Shown piece after piece: positions 39,001-57,000 of a stretch of DNA of 64,000 nucleotides. The stretch is taken from assembly GCA_963514005.1 (NCBI GenBank), contig OY740791.1, forward strand, positions 51,708,001-51,772,000, given 5' to 3'. Source of the stretch: Raja brachyura (lineage: Eukaryota). The position numbers were made by a program. The first letter of the stretch is position 1. Each line of letters opens with the position of its first letter.

Positions 39001-42000
39001 GATGGAGCTTAATCCATACAATTGTGAGGTGATGTGTTCTGTGGTGCAGTGGTAGGACATACAACATGAATGACAAGCTCTGACAAAATATTGAGAAACA
39101 GAGGGACATTTGGAGTGCGTCCATTAGTCTTTGAAAGTGGAAACAAGAGGTAGATAATGTGGTTAGGAAGGCATCTGGGATACAGCCTTCATTTGTCAGG
39201 GTTGTGATTACAGAAGTACGGAATTTATGCTTCAGATTTATAAACATTGGTCGGACCTCAGCTGGAGTAGTTCATGCAGTTCGGGTCACCACATTGCATG
39301 AAGGATTCAAAAGCATTGGAGAGGGTACAGAAGCAGGATGTTGCCTCAGATGGAGCAATTCGGGTCTGAGGAAAGTCTATTTCAGATGCAGGGATTTGAG
39401 TCTTTAAAAGCCTCAATGGGGATGTTAGTCATTTTCGGCATCTTTGAGCACATCCTCGAATCTTTCCCTCCATTCAATTAGTGGTCTCTTTCCATGACAT
39501 TGCTCTGAATTAACGGTCTACTTCAGGGTTTGCTTTTACAAAGTACAAAGTACAAAGTACACCAAAGTACAAAAGACAATTGGTGTAGTGAAATTTGTCT
39601 TGCCATGCAGCACATAGATAAAGATAGGACATAACATTAAATAATTTAACATAAAACATAAAAAACATCCCCCCGCAATGGTACCCATTATGAGGGAAGG
39701 CACAAAGTCCAGACCCCATCCCCAGTTCACCCATAGTCGGGCCTATTGAGGCCTCCACAGTTGCCTCTATGGGGGCCGATGTTCCAGGCCCTTCTTCGCC
39801 GGGTGATGGTACTCCGGCAAAGGGAGAACCCTCTCAGCGGCTCGGGGTGCCTGTAACGGCCGCTTCCTTGCAGGAGACCGTGGCTTCCGACGCGCAACAA
39901 GGCCGCGCTGAATGGAGCTCCACAACTGGCGATCTCGCCGGGAGATCCCAGGGTCCCGATGTTAAAGTTTAGCGCCGCCGCTCCACAGTCCCGCAGTTCC
40001 GCGATGTTCACCTGCGGTCTTCAGCTCACTGGAGCTCCAGCGCGGCGACCCAGGCAAGGCATCGTCCGCTCCACTCCGCAATAGCGCTCCAGCGCTGCAC
40101 CGATGCCGAAGCCGAGGTTCTGGGCGGTCCCCCCCGGAAAATGCCGTTCCAGGCCCGCTGGTAGGCCGCGAGGACGGGTCGACGGTGCAGCCCGGAGAAA
40201 GCTGCCTCTCCGACCAGGTGGGGACTCTAGAAAACAGGACTCCGAAAACAAAAAAACTCAACTAACTAAGAATTTAAAAAAAGAGAGAAGAAACGGACAG
40301 CTGCAGGCTGGGCAGCCATACCCGTACAGGACGGCGCTTTTGGGAGTGTGATCAGTGTGACCTGCCCAACTTAACCAACTGAGTGTAACTCAGAACTCAG
40401 TGGTGATCCTGGTCTGGAGAGGACAGCAGCATGGGATTATTTCTCCTTCATAGTGCTTCGTAGCATTTTTGGTGACCAGCTTGGCGTTTCCTTTTTGAGG
40501 ATGGATCTTACCTTCAACAGCCAAAGGACTATGACACTTTCTCACCTTCCCCTGATGCACAACAGTGACCTCTGACAATGATGGCTTAAATGATGGCCTG
40601 ATAAGATGAACCAATTCTCCCATCTCAGGAGTAACCTAACACCAAGGATAAACAAATTCCAATCCCCTTCAAATTGGTCCAGGATCAATCAGGCAGCAGT
40701 GACCCATGTCACCCTGTCTGCTTCTGAGTCTTGGACTATCTGCAATAGATGTATCTTTACAGGCATGAAATGGGCTTCAGCGATATACAGAAGTGTTTAT
40801 CTTTAAGATCTGATCACAGTAGGTCATGAAATGCGATATGTTAGAAGAAAGAAATAACATTACGTTTTTGTGGAAATAACAAAGAGCAGAATACAAGACA
40901 CTTACCATTGTGCGGCAAAAAATTCAGTTCATACCGAACTAAAACCTTGAGAGTATGTTGATAAAACAAACCACAGATCCATTTCCTTTTGTCTGCAACA
41001 ACTTTTGGAATGATCAACTTTGAAGATCTCTCTTTCTGCATTAGCTCCTTGAAATATTTATCTTTCACTACTTTGCCATCACCATTGATCCAAACAAGTC
41101 TCATTGACTCGGTGACGTTTGACACGGAGCATGTCAGGATAACATTTCTTCCCTCATTTGATTGTTTAGCTGGGAAACAAGAAATTCAGTGAGAATTAAA
41201 ACAACAGCTGTGGTTTCTACCCAATATGTTCTTAAATCCCGATGCCTGTAGAACTAACCCAAAGGATCACTGACAAGCTTTTCACTAACTTTGAGAAAGT
41301 TGCTGAATAAGCACCAATTCCCACAGTGTTGCCACTGCCCACAGTGTTGAACACAACAGCCCAAGGTCACAGATATTCCATGAATTACAGCGTTTTTCAC
41401 GTGTCAAGATGGTTAAAAAAATTAAAAGAGAACTTCAAGGGGCAAAGAGGAATATGGGGGTCCTTTTAAGATACTCAGAATAGTGACTACTATTGTTATA
41501 CCAGGTTACTCTGCAACCAGCACCAAACACAGGGAGGACCCCAATTACAGACTTCCTGGATTTACATTGTGGCCGATAGTCTGTGGGGCTAAAACTCAGT
41601 CATGCTGGGGCAAGCTTCCAAATATGTTCCTTCACAAGTTAAAGGGACATTCATGAGCAGGTAACAAGCCTGTGATTGGAACCAAATGCAGGTGAGTGCC
41701 CTTTAATTTATTTGTTTACTGGTTCTCACTCGAGCCTCTCTGCTCCCCCCATCCCCCCCCCCCATCACAGTGCAACCTCCACACTCCTCCAGACCCCAAC
41801 ACCATCTCATCACTTTCACCCAATCAAGAATCCCACACACCCAGCACCCAACAGCCTCTCCACCCATTGATCACATGATCGGACTGCACCCATCCACCAA
41901 TCAGTTAACACCACCCACTCCCACCAATCAAATAAAAGACAGATGGCCAGTCCGAGACACCACCCACTTCCCACCACCACGACTGTCGGCAGCAACCCTC

Positions 42001-54000: not shown

Positions 54001-57000
54001 TGTTTCAACTGAAGCAGTGTGTCGTATGGAATGGATCTACGGCATGAAATCACAGAGCTTTGAAATCTTCACATAGTCACTCACGTCACTCCGAAGTAAA
54101 AGAGTAAGATTAAACGAGAACTTACCAGTTTGAAGTTTGATCTTTATTTTATGAGGAGTTACGATGAGGGATTACGTGCCCTCCGCTCCCGGCCCTCATA
54201 ATCGCAAAGATCATATGGTAGTTCTAATCTTCTGAATCTTACTATATCACTTTGACTATAGTTACTGTAGTTTCACGCCACTGCTTTGAAGTATGACGCG
54301 CATACGCCTGGCGGGCTTATTCAAGTAATCCTTCATCATAACTCCGTATAAAATAAAGATCAAACTTCAAACTGGTAAGTTCTCATTTAATCTTACTATT
54401 CTCTGGATGGAAAATATTATTCTCACCTCAGTCTTAAATGGCCTCCCCTTTATTCTAAGACTGTGGCCCCTGGTTCTGGACTCACCCAAAATTGGGAACA
54501 TTTTTCCTGTATTTAGCTGTCCAGTCCTTTTATAATTTTATATGTTTCCATAAGATACCCCTTCATCCTTCTAAACTCCAGTAAATACAAGCCTAGTCTT
54601 TTCAATCTTTCCTCATATGACATTTGTTGCATTTTGTTGCACTTGTTGCATTTTGTACTGTACCGTTCATTATAATTTACTCTGAAATTTATCTGAACAA
54701 TTAATGTGTTTTATCCAAATGTATACGACAATTAACTAATATAAATCTAAATCTGAATTTGATATTGTTCAGACTACACAGACATAGTGTTATTGTTCCA
54801 CACGTTAGCAGTGTTCACACATTCTGTGCACATAACACTCTTGACACTCATGCTGCATCCTGAGATTATATGAATTGAAGTGTTTCAGAGGTTTGTACAT
54901 TAGATTTAGCTCCTCGGGAACTGATGGCAGAAGGTCCATGAACTGTAGTTTCTATTCCGCAATACCTTTGCATTGTCTGCACCGATCTTCAGTGAGTTCC
55001 TCAGCACTTACTCCTGCAGCCTAGAATATTCTGCAATGGAGATTTTGCTGGGGAAAGCATGAAGATCAAAGTAGTTGGTTCCAATTTCTCATTCACTCTC
55101 TCAGCAAACGTTAAAGCAATGAACTAATCCCAATCCCTTTACACCTGTGGAGAATTATCTACACGAGGCAAAGGCCTTGTTCGTCCTCTGCTAAAGCTCT
55201 CAAACTGTTGGAACGATTCTGAGTGGCACCAACTTTTAGAAGTAAACACATTTATTAACATTGAATATTACATTTTTTTAATAATGAAAGGGTCTCTAAT
55301 TCTACAAAGACGATTAGTTTAGATTCCTGAAGAGTCTCCACCCAGGCACCGGATCCGGGAGCAATTTTCCCGGTGCCAGTGTTTGGGAATATCAGCGTAT
55401 TCCGCTCCAGTGCTGGTCTCCACGTGGAGAAGTGAAGGAGAGCGCTGGCAAATTCCCCGCAGGAACTGCCAGCATGTTCTGGAATTCCTCTTTATGCAAC
55501 GCGTGGTTGGAAGTCCTGAACCTGTTCATATTCACGCAGGTAAATGCTGGCTGTTCACCGTGGAACTTCTGGTGCAACCATCAACACTCTGACCAGTGAA
55601 TGCAACAAAGTTTAGATGTAACTGGATTGATAAATTTGTCCCTGTCATGTCTCCCCCGACCGTCCTCTAGGTGGGAACTCTCTGACTGAGTGTAAGTTCC
55701 ACAGATGGACTTGCTCTGGGATCTCAACCAAGTGAGGCATGGACCTGGTTCACTGGGCAACATTGAGCAGCAGTGTAACTGGGGAATCTCACCCCAGGCC
55801 CACAGAATGAATGAAGGAAAATCTTTCCCCCAATTGTTTCATTGGGAGATTCACAGGGTGGAAGAAGTCTCACAATTCCCGTCATATTTCATCATTACAC
55901 GTAACATTATTTACAGAGAAGCACATTGTTGATCCGAGTCTTGCCCACTCACCTTTGATCCCATATATTTCATATAGTTTCAGGATCCGGTTCTTCAGCT
56001 GTGTCAAGGTGAATAATCCCGACCATTTAAATGTGGGTTTTTTTATTACCAGATTCACAGTACGGTCATCCACATCCACCTCCCTGTTCGTGTCTGTGTT
56101 TGCCCAGCCATTGCCCCACTGTTTGCTCCACGTGCCCCTGCCCTGGACGCGGAGAGTTACCACTGTCTGTTTTCCCCGCCTTGAGTGTGGTTCCCATTCC
56201 CAGACAAGAATGTCATTCCCGGGATTGTCCGGTCCTTTTAACGCAATGTCGCCTCCATTATCCAAAAAATAAATCTGATTTCGGATTTCTGTTGGAAAGA
56301 GAAAAAAAATGAAGGAATAACATTTTAAGCACATTTTCTCCACTCCAGGTCTGTAAACATTAATTTTGAATTTCATTTATTTCCAGAATGTTTTGATCTC
56401 CCACAGAACCTGCAGTGAGACGAACACAGTTTGTGAATAGATGTCTGGCTGGAATAACCTGGCCTCATCCAGGGATACTTCTTGACTTGAGAAGAGTGAG
56501 TGGGAGAAAGACGGAGGTGGAAGGGCGTTTGTGTCGGGTCTCCAGCCGGTTTTCCCTTTGACGGAGTTTCCTGATGTGGGTGGAGATCAGGCGGATCCTG
56601 TACACACCGCATCCCCGGCACTTGTCGGACAGACCTGGAACAGAATAATCATGCTCCTGCCTCCCTCCCTGCTCCTCATTCCACAGTGATTTACAACATA
56701 GTACAGATCAGCACAGGAACAAGCCCCTCGGCCCACAAGGTCTGTGTCGAGCATAATGCTACAACCAACTCTTATCTGCCTACACATAATGCATATCTCT
56801 CCATTCCCTGCATGTCCATGTGCCTATCCAAAAGTCTCTCAAATCCCATTCACACATCTCCCTCCATCACCACCAGCAGAATGTTCCAGCCACTCACCAC
56901 TCTCTGTGTAAAATACTTGCCCTACACATCTCCTTCACACTTTGCCTCTCTCACCTTAAAGCCATGCCCTCTAGTATTTGAAATTTCCACCCGGGGGAAA

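What the first reader, a model, noticed from the sequence alone, without database searches (positions are those of the whole stretch)
40906..56288. Ectodomain built by tandem duplication of a four-exon cassette; the register predicts more domains upstream
Seen: D1~D5, D2~D6, D3~D7 and D4~D8. The C2 pair D2/D6 is ~60% identical by hand count, while the V pairs look more divergent. Read from D3, the unit is V(S-S), C2(WxC), V(no Cys), C2, which echoes mammalian CD4, whose D3 lacks the disulfide. In the neighbouring pseudogene the first recognisable Ig exon after the leader is D3-type. Inference: the natural unit may start at the D3 type, so leader+V+C2(WxC) exons could lie beyond 64 kb, giving 10 or more domains.
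Basis: partly seen in the sequence, partly recalled or inferred. Interest (0 to 1): 0.75.

Follow-up and report, generated by a model that had tools for sequence, protein, structure and literature searches.

The report
Eight-domain skate Ig receptor, duplicated cassette
The region encodes the eight immunoglobulin-like domains of an inhibitory-type surface receptor from a large, unnamed fish gene family that most resembles CD4 and LAG-3, and relatives indicate that only a signal-peptide exon, not more domains, lies beyond the window.

Summary
Confirmed: eight phase-1 Ig exons on the minus strand (56288 down to 40906) are two copies of a four-exon cassette. Identities are D1~D5 41%, D2~D6 65%, D3~D7 45%, D4~D8 53%; cross-type E-values are all above 1e-4.

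Four further exons (TM 28111-28013; tail down to 22930, two ITIMs) complete an intact inhibitory-type receptor gene. It belongs to a large, unnamed fish Ig family.

- In 64 of 79 leader-bearing relatives the leader is followed directly by a D1-type domain, and never convincingly by a D3-type.
- Four-domain members read D1-D2-D3-D4-TM. Eight-domain skate and ray relatives read leader plus eight domains.
- D1 is of the first-position subtype; an AU test rejects the internal subtype (p 3e-6).
- No Ig exon or leader lies in 56289-64000, so only a leader exon is expected beyond 64 kb.

The duplication predates the shark-ray split, and D6's missing cysteine is conserved.

The CD4 echo has some basis. 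A family profile and a predicted structure of a four-domain relative rank LAG-3 and CD4 first among solved structures, but narrowly. CD4/LAG-3 tail motifs and a WxC in D2 are absent.

The parts
55953..56288 (-). Exon D1: V-like domain without Cys, type a, first-position subtype; phase 1-1, 336 nt
   Evidence: Splice sites and frame. Family HMM score 147.5. 80% identical to the first domain of Leucoraja model P0003.
49136..49405 (-). Exon D2: C2-like domain, type b, with Y-V-C; phase 1-1, 270 nt
   Evidence: (Ig_3, E 2e-7).
47782..48150 (-). Exon D3: V domain with the disulfide Cys pair, type c; phase 1-1, 369 nt; a run of six Gln at 48011-48028
   Evidence: (V-set, E 1e-6).
47443..47703 (-). 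Exon D4: C2 domain with W-R-C, type d; phase 1-1, 261 nt; only 78 nt of intron after D3
   Evidence: (ig, E 3e-7).
46557..46901 (-). Exon D5: V-like domain without Cys, type a, internal subtype; phase 1-1, 345 nt
   Evidence: Lies in the clade of 26 internal a-domains, SH-aLRT 100.
44271..44543 (-). Exon D6: C2-like domain, type b, with Y-T-W in place of Y-x-C; phase 1-1, 273 nt
   Evidence: The last b-domain has W at this place in 19 of 20 multi-cassette relatives.
42331..42669 (-). Exon D7: V domain with the disulfide Cys pair, type c; phase 1-1, 339 nt
   Evidence: (V-set, E 2.5e-8).
40906..41169 (-). Exon D8: C2 domain with W-I-C, type d; phase 1-1, 264 nt; the most diverged exon
   Evidence: Leucoraja model P0178 reads through this donor.
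28013..28111 (-). Stalk plus transmembrane exon: a 22-residue hydrophobic stretch followed by R-K-L-R; phase 1-1, 99 nt
   Evidence: tblastn with the tails of relatives P0026 and P0221. Boundaries.
23584..23637 (-). Cytoplasmic exon with the first ITIM (I-H-Y-G-S-I); phase 1-1, 54 nt
23130..23173 (-). Small cytoplasmic exon; phase 1-0, 44 nt
   Evidence: tblastn with P0221 and P0195, 78-87% identity. Boundaries.
22930..22998 (-). Last coding exon with the second ITIM (V-I-Y-A-Q-I) and the stop codon
   Evidence: 95% identical over 22 aa to the C-terminus of Amblyraja model P0221..
7356..8124 (+). Neighbouring broken copy, tail to tail with the gene. It holds only a c-type piece (7356-7517) and a d-type exon (7831-8124) with an in-frame stop and frame breaks.
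   Evidence: tblastn (65% to D4, with a stop). Family HMMs (d-type E 2e-14 and 5e-7 in two frames; c-type E 0.003).

Best explanation
The finding covers the whole ectodomain of a type I membrane receptor gene that runs on the minus strand from beyond the right edge of the window down to 22930.

The mature protein starts with D1. It consists of two copies of a four-domain unit in this order: V-like domain without cysteines, C2, V with disulfide, C2 with W-x-C. A stalk, one transmembrane helix and a short tail with two ITIMs follow.

The natural register of the unit is D1-D2-D3-D4. The second copy (D5-D8) is an old, distinct membrane-proximal cassette that arose before sharks and rays split. Some relatives have added more internal cassettes, giving 11-12 or 15-16 domains. 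Only a leader exon is expected upstream of 56288.

The gene belongs to a large multigene family. The family is unnamed in the databases and is found in sharks, rays and ray-finned fishes. It has ITIM-bearing members and members with a lysine in the membrane helix and a short tail, which is the make-up of paired inhibitory and activating immune receptors.

Inferred, not shown: ligand binding at the membrane-distal domains leads to phosphorylation of the ITIM tyrosines and recruitment of SH2 phosphatases that dampen cell activation.

The four-domain unit is most like CD4 and LAG-3 among solved structures. The gene is neither CD4 nor LAG-3.
For: Gene structure:
- Twelve coding exons have canonical splice sites and matching phases, no internal stop, and a stop after the second ITIM.

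Register:
- Of 134 typed family models, 79 are leader-bearing. The first domain is a-type (D1 type) in 64, b-type in 12 and c-type in 3 unconvincing cases.
- Architectures among the leader-bearing models: abcd 35, abcdabcd 13, one abcdabcdabcd.
- Leucoraja P0178 is leader plus 8 domains and ends by reading through the D8 donor. Mobula P0005 is leader plus 8 domains, TM and an ITIM tail.
- D1 is sister to the first domain of P0003 (SH-aLRT 96). All 26 internal a-domains plus D5 form one clade (SH-aLRT 100). All 29 elasmobranch first-position a-domains lie outside it.
- The AU test rejects D1 inside the internal clade: delta lnL 62.6, p 2.9e-6.

Age of the duplication:
- D5, D6 and D7 group with second-cassette domains of Mobula and with the last or internal cassette of Scyliorhinus (SH-aLRT 98-99).
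- dS between the copies is 0.69-1.07 and dN/dS is 0.30-0.65.
- W replaces the second Cys in the last b-domain of 19 of 20 multi-cassette models.

Upstream region:
- No family Ig hit with E below 1 lies in 56377-64000, out of 2121 six-frame segments scanned.
- No leader is found there either.

Receptor class:
- The window's tail carries two matches to (S/I/V/L)xYxx(I/V/L).
- Of 98 models that end in a d-domain with a tail of at least 30 residues, 49 have a plain TM plus an ITIM, 24 have a charged TM and no ITIM, 16 have a plain TM and no ITIM, 3 have both, and 6 have no TM.

CD4/LAG-3 likeness:
- A profile of 12 four-domain relatives ranks three LAG-3 chains first of 177,635 PDB sequences (E 5.5e-12). 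The W-x-C columns align to the W-G-C of LAG-3 D2. CD4 follows at E 2e-8.
- The AlphaFold model of relative P0014 (pLDDT 80.6, pTM 0.72) has single long strands across both V-to-C2 junctions.
- Foldseek ranks CD4 and LAG-3 at places 1-4, and they take 8 of the first 11 places.
Against: - The leader exon of this gene was not found, so the junction leader-to-56288 is inferred from relatives. Most of those are automatic gene predictions, and several are visibly wrong at their ends (intron read-through in P0002, P0003, P0006, P0178).
- Relatives with 11-16 domains exist (P0175, P0177, P0007), so larger forms are possible in this family.
- The CD4/LAG-3 lead is narrow. pIgR and CEA score within one order of magnitude. 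Foldseek TM-scores are low (0.25-0.44).
- Profiles made from the window's own exon pairs alone do not reach significance for LAG-3 (E 0.07-0.3) or find only generic Ig hits.
- The trees are short-alignment 'quick' trees, and the AU group was named after the tree was seen.
- No expression or binding data exist. ITIM function is read from the motif only.
Confidence: 0.8

Rival explanations
1. One reading: the natural unit starts at the D3 type (V with disulfide, C2 with WxC, V without Cys, C2, as in CD4), so a leader plus a V and a C2(WxC) exon lie beyond 64 kb and the protein has ten or more domains.
For: - The cysteine pattern read from D3 mimics mammalian CD4.
- The family profile's best stretch against CD4 and LAG-3 is the c-d (D3-D4 type) pair against their D1-D2.
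- The neighbouring broken copy holds only c- and d-type pieces.
- Many skate models are c-d only.
Against: - No convincing leader-to-c model is found among the 79 leader-bearing relatives. 64 go leader-to-a.
- All c-d-only models that were looked at lack a signal peptide.
- Four-domain members end d-TM and start leader-a.
- The claimed pseudogene leader ranks 102 of 2121 against a leader profile.
- Loss of the Cys pair occurs in any of the four CD4/LAG-3 domains in some species (PMC10768021, section 3.6, read). The Cys pattern therefore does not fix a register.
Confidence: 0.04
2. One or more whole extra cassettes (a-b-c-d) lie upstream beyond 64 kb, as in the 12- and 15-16-domain relatives, so D1 would be an internal domain.
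For: Heptranchias P0175 (12 domains), Hemitrygon P0177 (11 typed) and Scyliorhinus P0007 (15 typed, N-terminus spurious) show that the cassette number varies.
Against: - D1 is of the first-position subtype. Every internal a-domain in those long relatives is of the D5 subtype.
- The AU test rejects D1 among the internal domains, p 2.9e-6.
- The closest skate models have 4 or 8 domains after the leader.
Confidence: 0.05
3. The copy in the window is 5'-truncated and has no leader at all, making it a dead or silent gene like the many fragmentary copies of this family in skates.
For: - No leader lies in the 7.7 kb upstream. That stretch is filled by a LINE with reverse transcriptase and by simple sequence.
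- A broken copy lies next door.
- Many skate models are partial.
Against: - All twelve exons are intact with matching phases.
- dN/dS between the cassettes is below 1.
- Other introns of the gene reach 6.5 and 12.8 kb, so a first intron longer than 7.7 kb is unremarkable.
Confidence: 0.08
4. Translation starts inside the open frame that runs straight into D1 (ATG at 56376 or 56334). The leader would then be contiguous with D1 and nothing would lie upstream.
For: - The frame is open from 56376, with two ATGs and a hydrophobic run before D1.
- tblastn alignments of relatives' leaders extend 8-10 residues into it.
Against: - The hydrophobic run is the translation of a 15-base pyrimidine tract that ends in CAG, a near-ideal acceptor.
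- It is shorter than the relatives' leader and differs from it just before D1.
- A profile of family leaders gives no hit there. The best minus-strand segment above 56288 has E 20.
Confidence: 0.03

Closest known systems
CD4 / LAG-3 family (V-C2-V-C2 co-receptors for MHC class II)
   Same: - Four-domain V-C2-V-C2 unit.
- W-x-C in strand F of the last C2.
- Long continuous strand across each V-to-C2 junction in the predicted model of a relative, a feature PMC10768021 section 3.6 names as rare and typical of CD4/LAG-3.
- Top ranks in both the sequence-profile and the fold search of solved structures.
- Growth by tandem duplication of exon sets.
- An ITIM-like inhibitory tail is also the mark of LAG-3.
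   Different: - W-x-C is absent from the second domain (Y-V-C in D2, Y-T-W in D6).
- The first V lacks the Cys pair and the third V has it.
- The tail has two classical ITIMs. It has neither Cx(C/H) of CD4 nor (F/Y)xxL(D/E) of LAG-3.
- The unit is doubled here and multiplied further in relatives.
- Activating partners with a lysine in the TM helix exist.
- None of the hits whose names I saw (30 clusters looked up; 6 + 57 named hits) is named CD4 or LAG-3.
- No CD4-specific Pfam family appears among the 25 of 33 families listed for 12 relatives.
Paired inhibitory/activating Ig-like receptor families (KIR, LILR, Siglec, CD300, and fish NITR and NILT; recalled as a class, NITR/NILT/MDIR as summarised in PMC3031540, passages read)
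   Same: - A multigene family with many copies per genome (57 hits from the D4 exon alone).
- ITIM tails alongside short tails with a charged TM residue.
- Variable domain number.
   Different: - Domain types and their order are fixed (a-b-c-d) and are multiplied as a block of four.
- Ig domains here are closest to CD4/LAG-3, not to the KIR/LILR or CD300 type.
MDIR, modular domain immune-type receptors of the clearnose skate (Cannon et al. 2006, Immunogenetics; content recalled, primary paper not readable here)
   Same: A skate multigene Ig family. As I recall it has four domain subfamilies, one to six domains, and ITIM or charged-TM forms.
   Different: - PMC3031540 describes MDIR domains as similar to CD300, TREM and pIgR.
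- None of the 57 + 6 named hits of the window's exons carries the MDIR name.
- Identity or difference was not tested directly.
CD276 (B7-H3), the automatic name given to some skate family members
   Same: - 7 of 57 hits of the D4 exon are named 'CD276 antigen homolog'.
- Human 4Ig B7-H3 is also V-C-V-C by exon duplication (recalled).
- The CD276 structure appears weakly in the D4/D8 profile search (E 0.005).
   Different: - The name is automatic and is applied to two-domain fragments.
- The family profile and the fold search rank LAG-3 and CD4 first. CD276 is not among the chains listed.

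Membership tests
CD4/LAG-3 family | Ectodomain unit of four Ig-like domains in the order V-C2-V-C2 | tested here: met
   - Exon order and Pfam types for the window.
- Domain typing of 134 relatives.
- All-beta four-domain model of relative P0014, with pLDDT about 90 in each domain.
- In the window the unit occurs twice.
CD4/LAG-3 family | W-x-C motif in strand F of both C2 domains (D2 and D4), as stated in PMC10768021 sections 3.1 and 3.6 | tested here: not met
   - Present in D4 (WRC) and D8 (WIC), and in 139 of 146 d-type domains of relatives.
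- Absent from D2 (YVC) and D6 (YTW). b-type domains of relatives have Y-x-C or Y-x-W.
CD4/LAG-3 family | Continuous beta-strand joining V strand G to C2 strand A | tested here: inconclusive
   Seen in the AlphaFold model of relative P0014 (strands 132-147 and 336-350). This is a prediction for a relative, not for the window's protein, which was not joined or folded.
CD4/LAG-3 family | Closest similarity to CD4 or LAG-3 rather than to other Ig families | tested here: inconclusive
   - Family profile: LAG-3 ranks 1-3 (E 5.5e-12), but pIgR and CEA are at 4e-11 and CD4 is at rank 12.
- Foldseek: CD4 and LAG-3 take ranks 1-4, with pIgR within a factor of 20 in E.
- The window's own exon pairs alone are not significant for LAG-3.
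CD4 (orthologue) | Cytoplasmic Cx(C/H) motif for LCK binding | tested here: not met
   The four tail exons of the window hold one Cys and no CxC or CxH.
LAG-3 (orthologue) | Cytoplasmic (F/Y)xxL(D/E) motif encoded on a single tail exon | tested here: not met
   The tail is split over three exons after the TM exon. Its tyrosine motifs are IHYGSI and VIYAQI, with no YxxL(D/E).
CD4/LAG-3 family | Location in the conserved CD4-LAG-3 genomic neighbourhood | not testable with these tools
   The window holds no other gene apart from repeats and a broken copy. No vertebrate genome collection was available.
Paired ITIM / activating Ig-like receptors (functional class) | ITIM consensus (S/I/V/L)xYxx(I/V/L) in the tail | tested here: met
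   Two matches in the window's tail exons at 23584-23637 and 22930-22998. 49 + 3 of 98 relatives with tails carry at least one.
Paired ITIM / activating Ig-like receptors (functional class) | Sister forms with a charged residue in the TM helix and a short tail | tested here: met
   24 of 98 tailed relatives have K or R in the TM stretch and no ITIM, for example P0014, P0157 and P0189. A few of the 24 are artefacts of my rule, such as the read-through tail of P0003. No such form lies in the window itself.
MDIR (skate modular domain immune-type receptors) | Sequence identity with the published MDIR1-5 proteins | not tested
   No MDIR sequence was available from a tool. Indirectly, 0 of 63 named hits carry that name.

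The most novel reading that the evidence does not exclude
This gene represents an undescribed third branch of the CD4/LAG-3 superfamily. The branch is conserved from sharks and rays to teleosts and apparently lacks a named tetrapod counterpart. It evolved into a multigene set of paired inhibitory (double ITIM) and activating (lysine in the membrane helix) receptors. Its reach from the membrane is tuned by multiplying a rigid four-domain cassette (4, 8, 12 or 16 domains). If so, the V-C2-V-C2 unit of CD4 and LAG-3 was once part of a wider receptor family. The ligands of this branch, MHC class II among the candidates, would bear on how T-cell co-receptors arose.
Probability: 0.3. Interest if true: 0.65.

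Novelty: new variant of a known kind. Interest (0 to 1): 0.42.

Why it matters
As a gene structure it is ordinary for the Ig superfamily: phase-1 exons are easily duplicated as blocks.

What remains of interest is the family:
- It is large and unnamed in the databases. My five literature searches found no description of it.
- It pairs ITIM forms with charged-TM forms.
- It multiplies a fixed four-domain cassette. The membrane-proximal copy has been kept distinct since before sharks and rays split.
- Its nearest solved relatives are CD4 and LAG-3.

For comparative immunology it offers a testable candidate for a lost or overlooked relative of the T-cell co-receptors, and a natural series of receptors that differ mainly in length.

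Tried and rejected
- **Leader search upstream of D1.** Local alignment of six leader peptides against 56289-64000 gave scores no better on the gene's strand than on the other strand. A profile of ten family leaders against all 2121 six-frame segments found nothing significant anywhere. The best E was 0.14, on the wrong strand and far from the gene.
- **PDB search with the D1/D5 pair alone.** Only two chance hits, with E above 1.
- **PDB searches with the D3/D7, D4/D8 and D2/D6 pairs alone.** Only generic V or Ig hits (contactin, MXRA8, pIgR, PD-L1, PD-1, NITR, antibodies). LAG-3 covered the whole D4/D8 profile but at E 0.07-0.3.
- **ESM Atlas with the D1 exon.** Best score 0.87, bacterial hypothetical clusters, no lead.
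- **Pfam on 12 four-domain relatives.** Generic Ig families only among the 25 of 33 families shown.
- **MDIR as the name of this family.** The primary paper is not in the library. Only a secondary description was read. The question is left open.
- **Accession and locus names of six relatives.** Found in no paper.
- **A general search for cartilaginous-fish ITIM receptor families.** 20 of 41 papers were listed; none of the 20 titles concerns this family.
- **Intron homology between the cassettes.** One 231-base match (49666-49895 with 44998-45219, 75%) is a dispersed repeat that also occurs elsewhere in the window. It is not a relic of the duplication.
- **My first count of ITIMs.** It was inflated by a match inside the TM helix of the activating forms. 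I replaced it with the count.
- **Not used.** The genome-contig collection holds only bacteria and archaea, and the phage, plasmid and E. coli collections cannot bear on a vertebrate gene. The complex prediction was not used either.

Full report
**What is in the sequence**

On the minus strand between 56288 and 40906 there are eight open stretches. Each is bounded by a pyrimidine tract plus AG on one side and GT on the other, and each is in phase 1 at both ends.

| Exon | Coordinates |
|---|---|
| D1 | 55953-56288 |
| D2 | 49136-49405 |
| D3 | 47782-48150 |
| D4 | 47443-47703 |
| D5 | 46557-46901 |
| D6 | 44271-44543 |
| D7 | 42331-42669 |
| D8 | 40906-41169 |

Pfam finds Ig families in six of the eight exon peptides. 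D3 and D7 are V-set; D2, D4, D6 and D8 match Ig_3 or ig. Nothing significant is found in D1 and D5.

blastp of the eight peptides against each other gives four strong pairs:
- D1~D5 41%, E 3e-26
- D2~D6 65%, E 3e-36
- D3~D7 45%, E 8e-32
- D4~D8 53%, E 1e-23

No cross-type pair is better than E 1.5e-4.

One addition: D6 has tryptophan where D2 has the second cysteine. At DNA level only the exons and one dispersed repeat match between the two halves.

The joined, spliced protein of this window was never built, searched or folded. What that leaves open is a direct fold of the window's own eight-domain protein.

**The rest of the gene**

tblastn with the C-terminal parts of relatives found four more minus-strand exons with matching phases:
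- A stalk plus transmembrane exon at 28013-28111.
- A 54-base exon at 23584-23637 with the motif IHYGSI.
- A 44-base exon at 23130-23173.
- A last exon at 22930-22998 with VIYAQI and the stop codon.

Both motifs fit the ITIM consensus. The gene therefore has twelve intact coding exons over 33 kb. Its introns range from 78 bases to 12.8 kb and are filled in part by retroelements with reverse transcriptase.

On the plus strand at 7356-8124 lies a broken copy with only a D3-type piece and a D4-type exon. That exon carries a stop and frame breaks.

**Relatives**

The D1 exon alone finds six predicted proteins of skates and a manta ray. The D4 exon finds 57 proteins, all from sharks and rays. A profile of D3 and D7 finds 149 representatives in the 1.84-billion-protein library.

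All 30 clusters that I looked up are predicted proteins of sharks, rays, sturgeons, bichirs, eels, tarpon, carps, catfish and pike. They are called 'uncharacterized', 'hypothetical' or 'Ig-like domain-containing'. One further member of one of these clusters (P0164) is auto-named 'CEACAM5-like'. Among the 57 hits of the D4 exon, automatic names occur: 'CD276 antigen homolog' for 7 of 57, 'obscurin-like' for 1 and 'VCAM1-like' for 1.

The best matches to the window are 75-93% identical per exon and come from Leucoraja, Amblyraja and Rhinoraja. The window is therefore from a skate-like genome and not human.

**The register**

Of 235 proteins held, 134 count as family members by my rule, and 79 of these have a leader-like N-terminus. 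The first domain after the leader is:
- a-type in 64.
- b-type in 12. These are teleost three-domain forms and exon-skipped isoforms.
- c-type in 3. Two of these have no credible signal peptide. The third is a weakly scoring protein with an untyped domain in front.

The commonest architectures are abcd (35 models) and abcdabcd (13 models). There is one abcdabcdabcd. Scyliorhinus model P0007 has 15 typed domains behind a spurious N-terminus.

Four-domain members run leader-a-b-c-d-TM. Mobula P0005 runs leader, eight domains in the window's order, TM and an ITIM tail. Leucoraja P0178 runs leader plus eight domains and ends by reading through the D8 donor, exactly as the window's frame does. Leucoraja P0003, the closest match to D1-D4, runs leader-a-b-c-d and then reads into the intron after D4.

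The unit is therefore D1-D2-D3-D4, not D3-D4-D5-D6.

**Is D1 really the first domain here?**

In a tree of 64 a-type domains, all 26 internal a-domains of elasmobranchs fall into one clade together with D5 (SH-aLRT 100). All 29 first-position elasmobranch a-domains lie outside it. D1 is sister to the first domain of P0003 (SH-aLRT 96).

Forcing D1 into the internal clade costs 62.6 log-likelihood units (AU p 2.9e-6). One caveat applies: I named the group after seeing the tree.

The family HMMs find nothing with E below 1 in 56377-64000, out of 2121 six-frame segments. Neither alignment nor a leader profile finds a leader there. That stretch holds a LINE and simple sequence.

I conclude that a leader exon, and nothing else, lies beyond 64 kb. 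This step is inferred from relatives and is not seen in the window.

That removes the main prop of the rotated register.

The open frame that runs into D1 from two ATGs (56376 and 56334) is most simply the translation of the acceptor's pyrimidine tract.

**Age of the duplication**

D5, D6 and D7 group with the second-cassette domains of Mobula and Narcine. They also group with the internal or last cassette of Scyliorhinus and other sharks (SH-aLRT 98-100). D1-D4 group with first-cassette domains. D8 groups with the last d-domains of rays only.

The tryptophan that replaces the second cysteine in D6 is found in the last b-domain of 19 of 20 multi-cassette relatives, and in only 1 of the other b-domains, 20 of which have cysteine. 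It is therefore a conserved mark of the membrane-proximal cassette and not decay.

Between the copies dS is 0.69-1.07, which is near saturation, and dN/dS is 0.30-0.65.

The doubling is older than the shark-ray split. The 12- and 16-domain forms arose later by repeating internal cassettes.

**What it is like**

Takizawa et al. 2023 (PMC10768021; I read the outline, passages, and sections 3.2 and 3.6) describe the following for CD4 and LAG-3:
- V-C2-V-C2 architecture.
- W-x-C in D2 and D4.
- A continuous strand across each V-C2 junction.
- Species-specific loss of the Cys pair in any of the four domains.
- Tails with Cx(C/H) in CD4 or (F/Y)xxL(D/E) in LAG-3.

A profile of 12 four-domain relatives ranks three LAG-3 chains first among 177,635 PDB sequences (E 5.5e-12). 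The c-d part aligns to LAG-3 D1-D2, with W-x-C on W-G-C, and again to D3-D4. CD4 follows at E 2e-8. However, pIgR and CEA score 4e-11.

An AlphaFold model of the four-domain relative P0014 (pLDDT 80.6, pTM 0.72) shows four beta domains with one long strand across each V-C2 junction. In Foldseek against 350,542 PDB chains, CD4 and LAG-3 take ranks 1-4 and 8 of the first 11 places. TM-scores are low (0.25-0.44) and pIgR is close behind.

Against membership:
- No W-x-C in D2 or D6.
- No CD4 or LAG-3 tail motif.
- No CD4-specific Pfam hit among those listed.
- No CD4 or LAG-3 name among relatives.
- No significant LAG-3 hit from the window's own exon pairs.

The gene therefore works with a CD4/LAG-3-like scaffold, but I do not file it as CD4 or LAG-3.

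**Likely function**

The window's tail has two ITIMs. Of 98 relatives that end in a d-domain with a tail of at least 30 residues:
- 49 have a plain TM helix and at least one ITIM.
- 24 have K or R in the helix and no ITIM.
- 16 have neither.
- 3 have both.
- 6 have no helix by my rule.

That split, together with the many copies per genome, is the signature of paired inhibitory and activating immune receptors.

The gene structure and the motifs are shown. Signalling through SH2 phosphatases, ligand binding by the distal domains and any link to MHC class II are inferred.

**Literature**

Five searches found no paper on this family. The skate MDIR family (Cannon et al. 2006) is recalled as similar in outline. 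I could not read its primary paper, and the supplements of PMC10768021 were closed, so a prior description cannot be excluded.

**Verdict**

The cassette duplication is real and old. The gene is an intact eight-domain ITIM receptor of an unnamed CD4/LAG-3-like family. The predicted extra upstream domains are not supported.

Noticed in passing
window 7356-8124 (+): A broken family copy lies tail to tail with the gene. It holds only c- and d-type pieces. Many skate gene models are likewise c-d only and lack a signal peptide (for example P0016, P0020, P0201-P0210), so c-d(-TM) fragments seem to have been copied around skate genomes.
   Followed up: partly
window 1616-2038 (+), esp. A profile of ten family leaders ranks it 102nd of 2121 segments (E 35), so it may be a chance feature.
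   Followed up: yes
window 56289-56376 (-): The frame is open from an ATG at 56376 (second ATG at 56334) straight into D1. The pyrimidine tract of the acceptor translates into a leader-like hydrophobic run, and tblastn alignments of relatives' leaders spill into it. Rhinoraja model P0006 builds its N-terminus from the homologous intron.
   Followed up: partly
window 48011-48028 (-), inside exon D3: A run of six glutamine codons (CAA/CAG) sits in a loop of D3. It is also present in Leucoraja P0003 and absent from D7.
   Followed up: no
window 50186-53915 (+), in the D1-D2 intron: A retroelement lies on the opposite strand. It has a 470-aa ORF with no Pfam match, followed by ORFs with a reverse transcriptase domain (52643-53095, E 1e-15).
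   Followed up: partly
window 45253-46540 (-), 59771-63148 (-), 2744-6139 (-): LINE-like fragments with reverse transcriptase (46091-46540, 60916-62028, 4286-5806). One lies in the D5-D6 intron in the gene's orientation. One fills much of the 7.7 kb upstream of D1.
   Followed up: partly
window 49666-49895 and 44998-45219: A 231-base match (75%) lies upstream of D2 and of D6. It looks like the tail of a dispersed repeat that recurs elsewhere in the window (for example near 20067-20456), not a relic of the cassette duplication.
   Followed up: partly
window 57760-58560: A long purine-rich (plus strand) low-complexity tract. It reads as Ser/Leu/Pro or Glu/Arg/Gly repeats in several frames.
   Followed up: no
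   Followed up: no
relatives P0010 and P0030 (Anguilla rostrata): The 2139-aa eel model is a run-on of several four-domain genes with transmembrane segments inside it. It points to a tandem array of four-domain family genes in eels rather than one giant protein.
   Followed up: no
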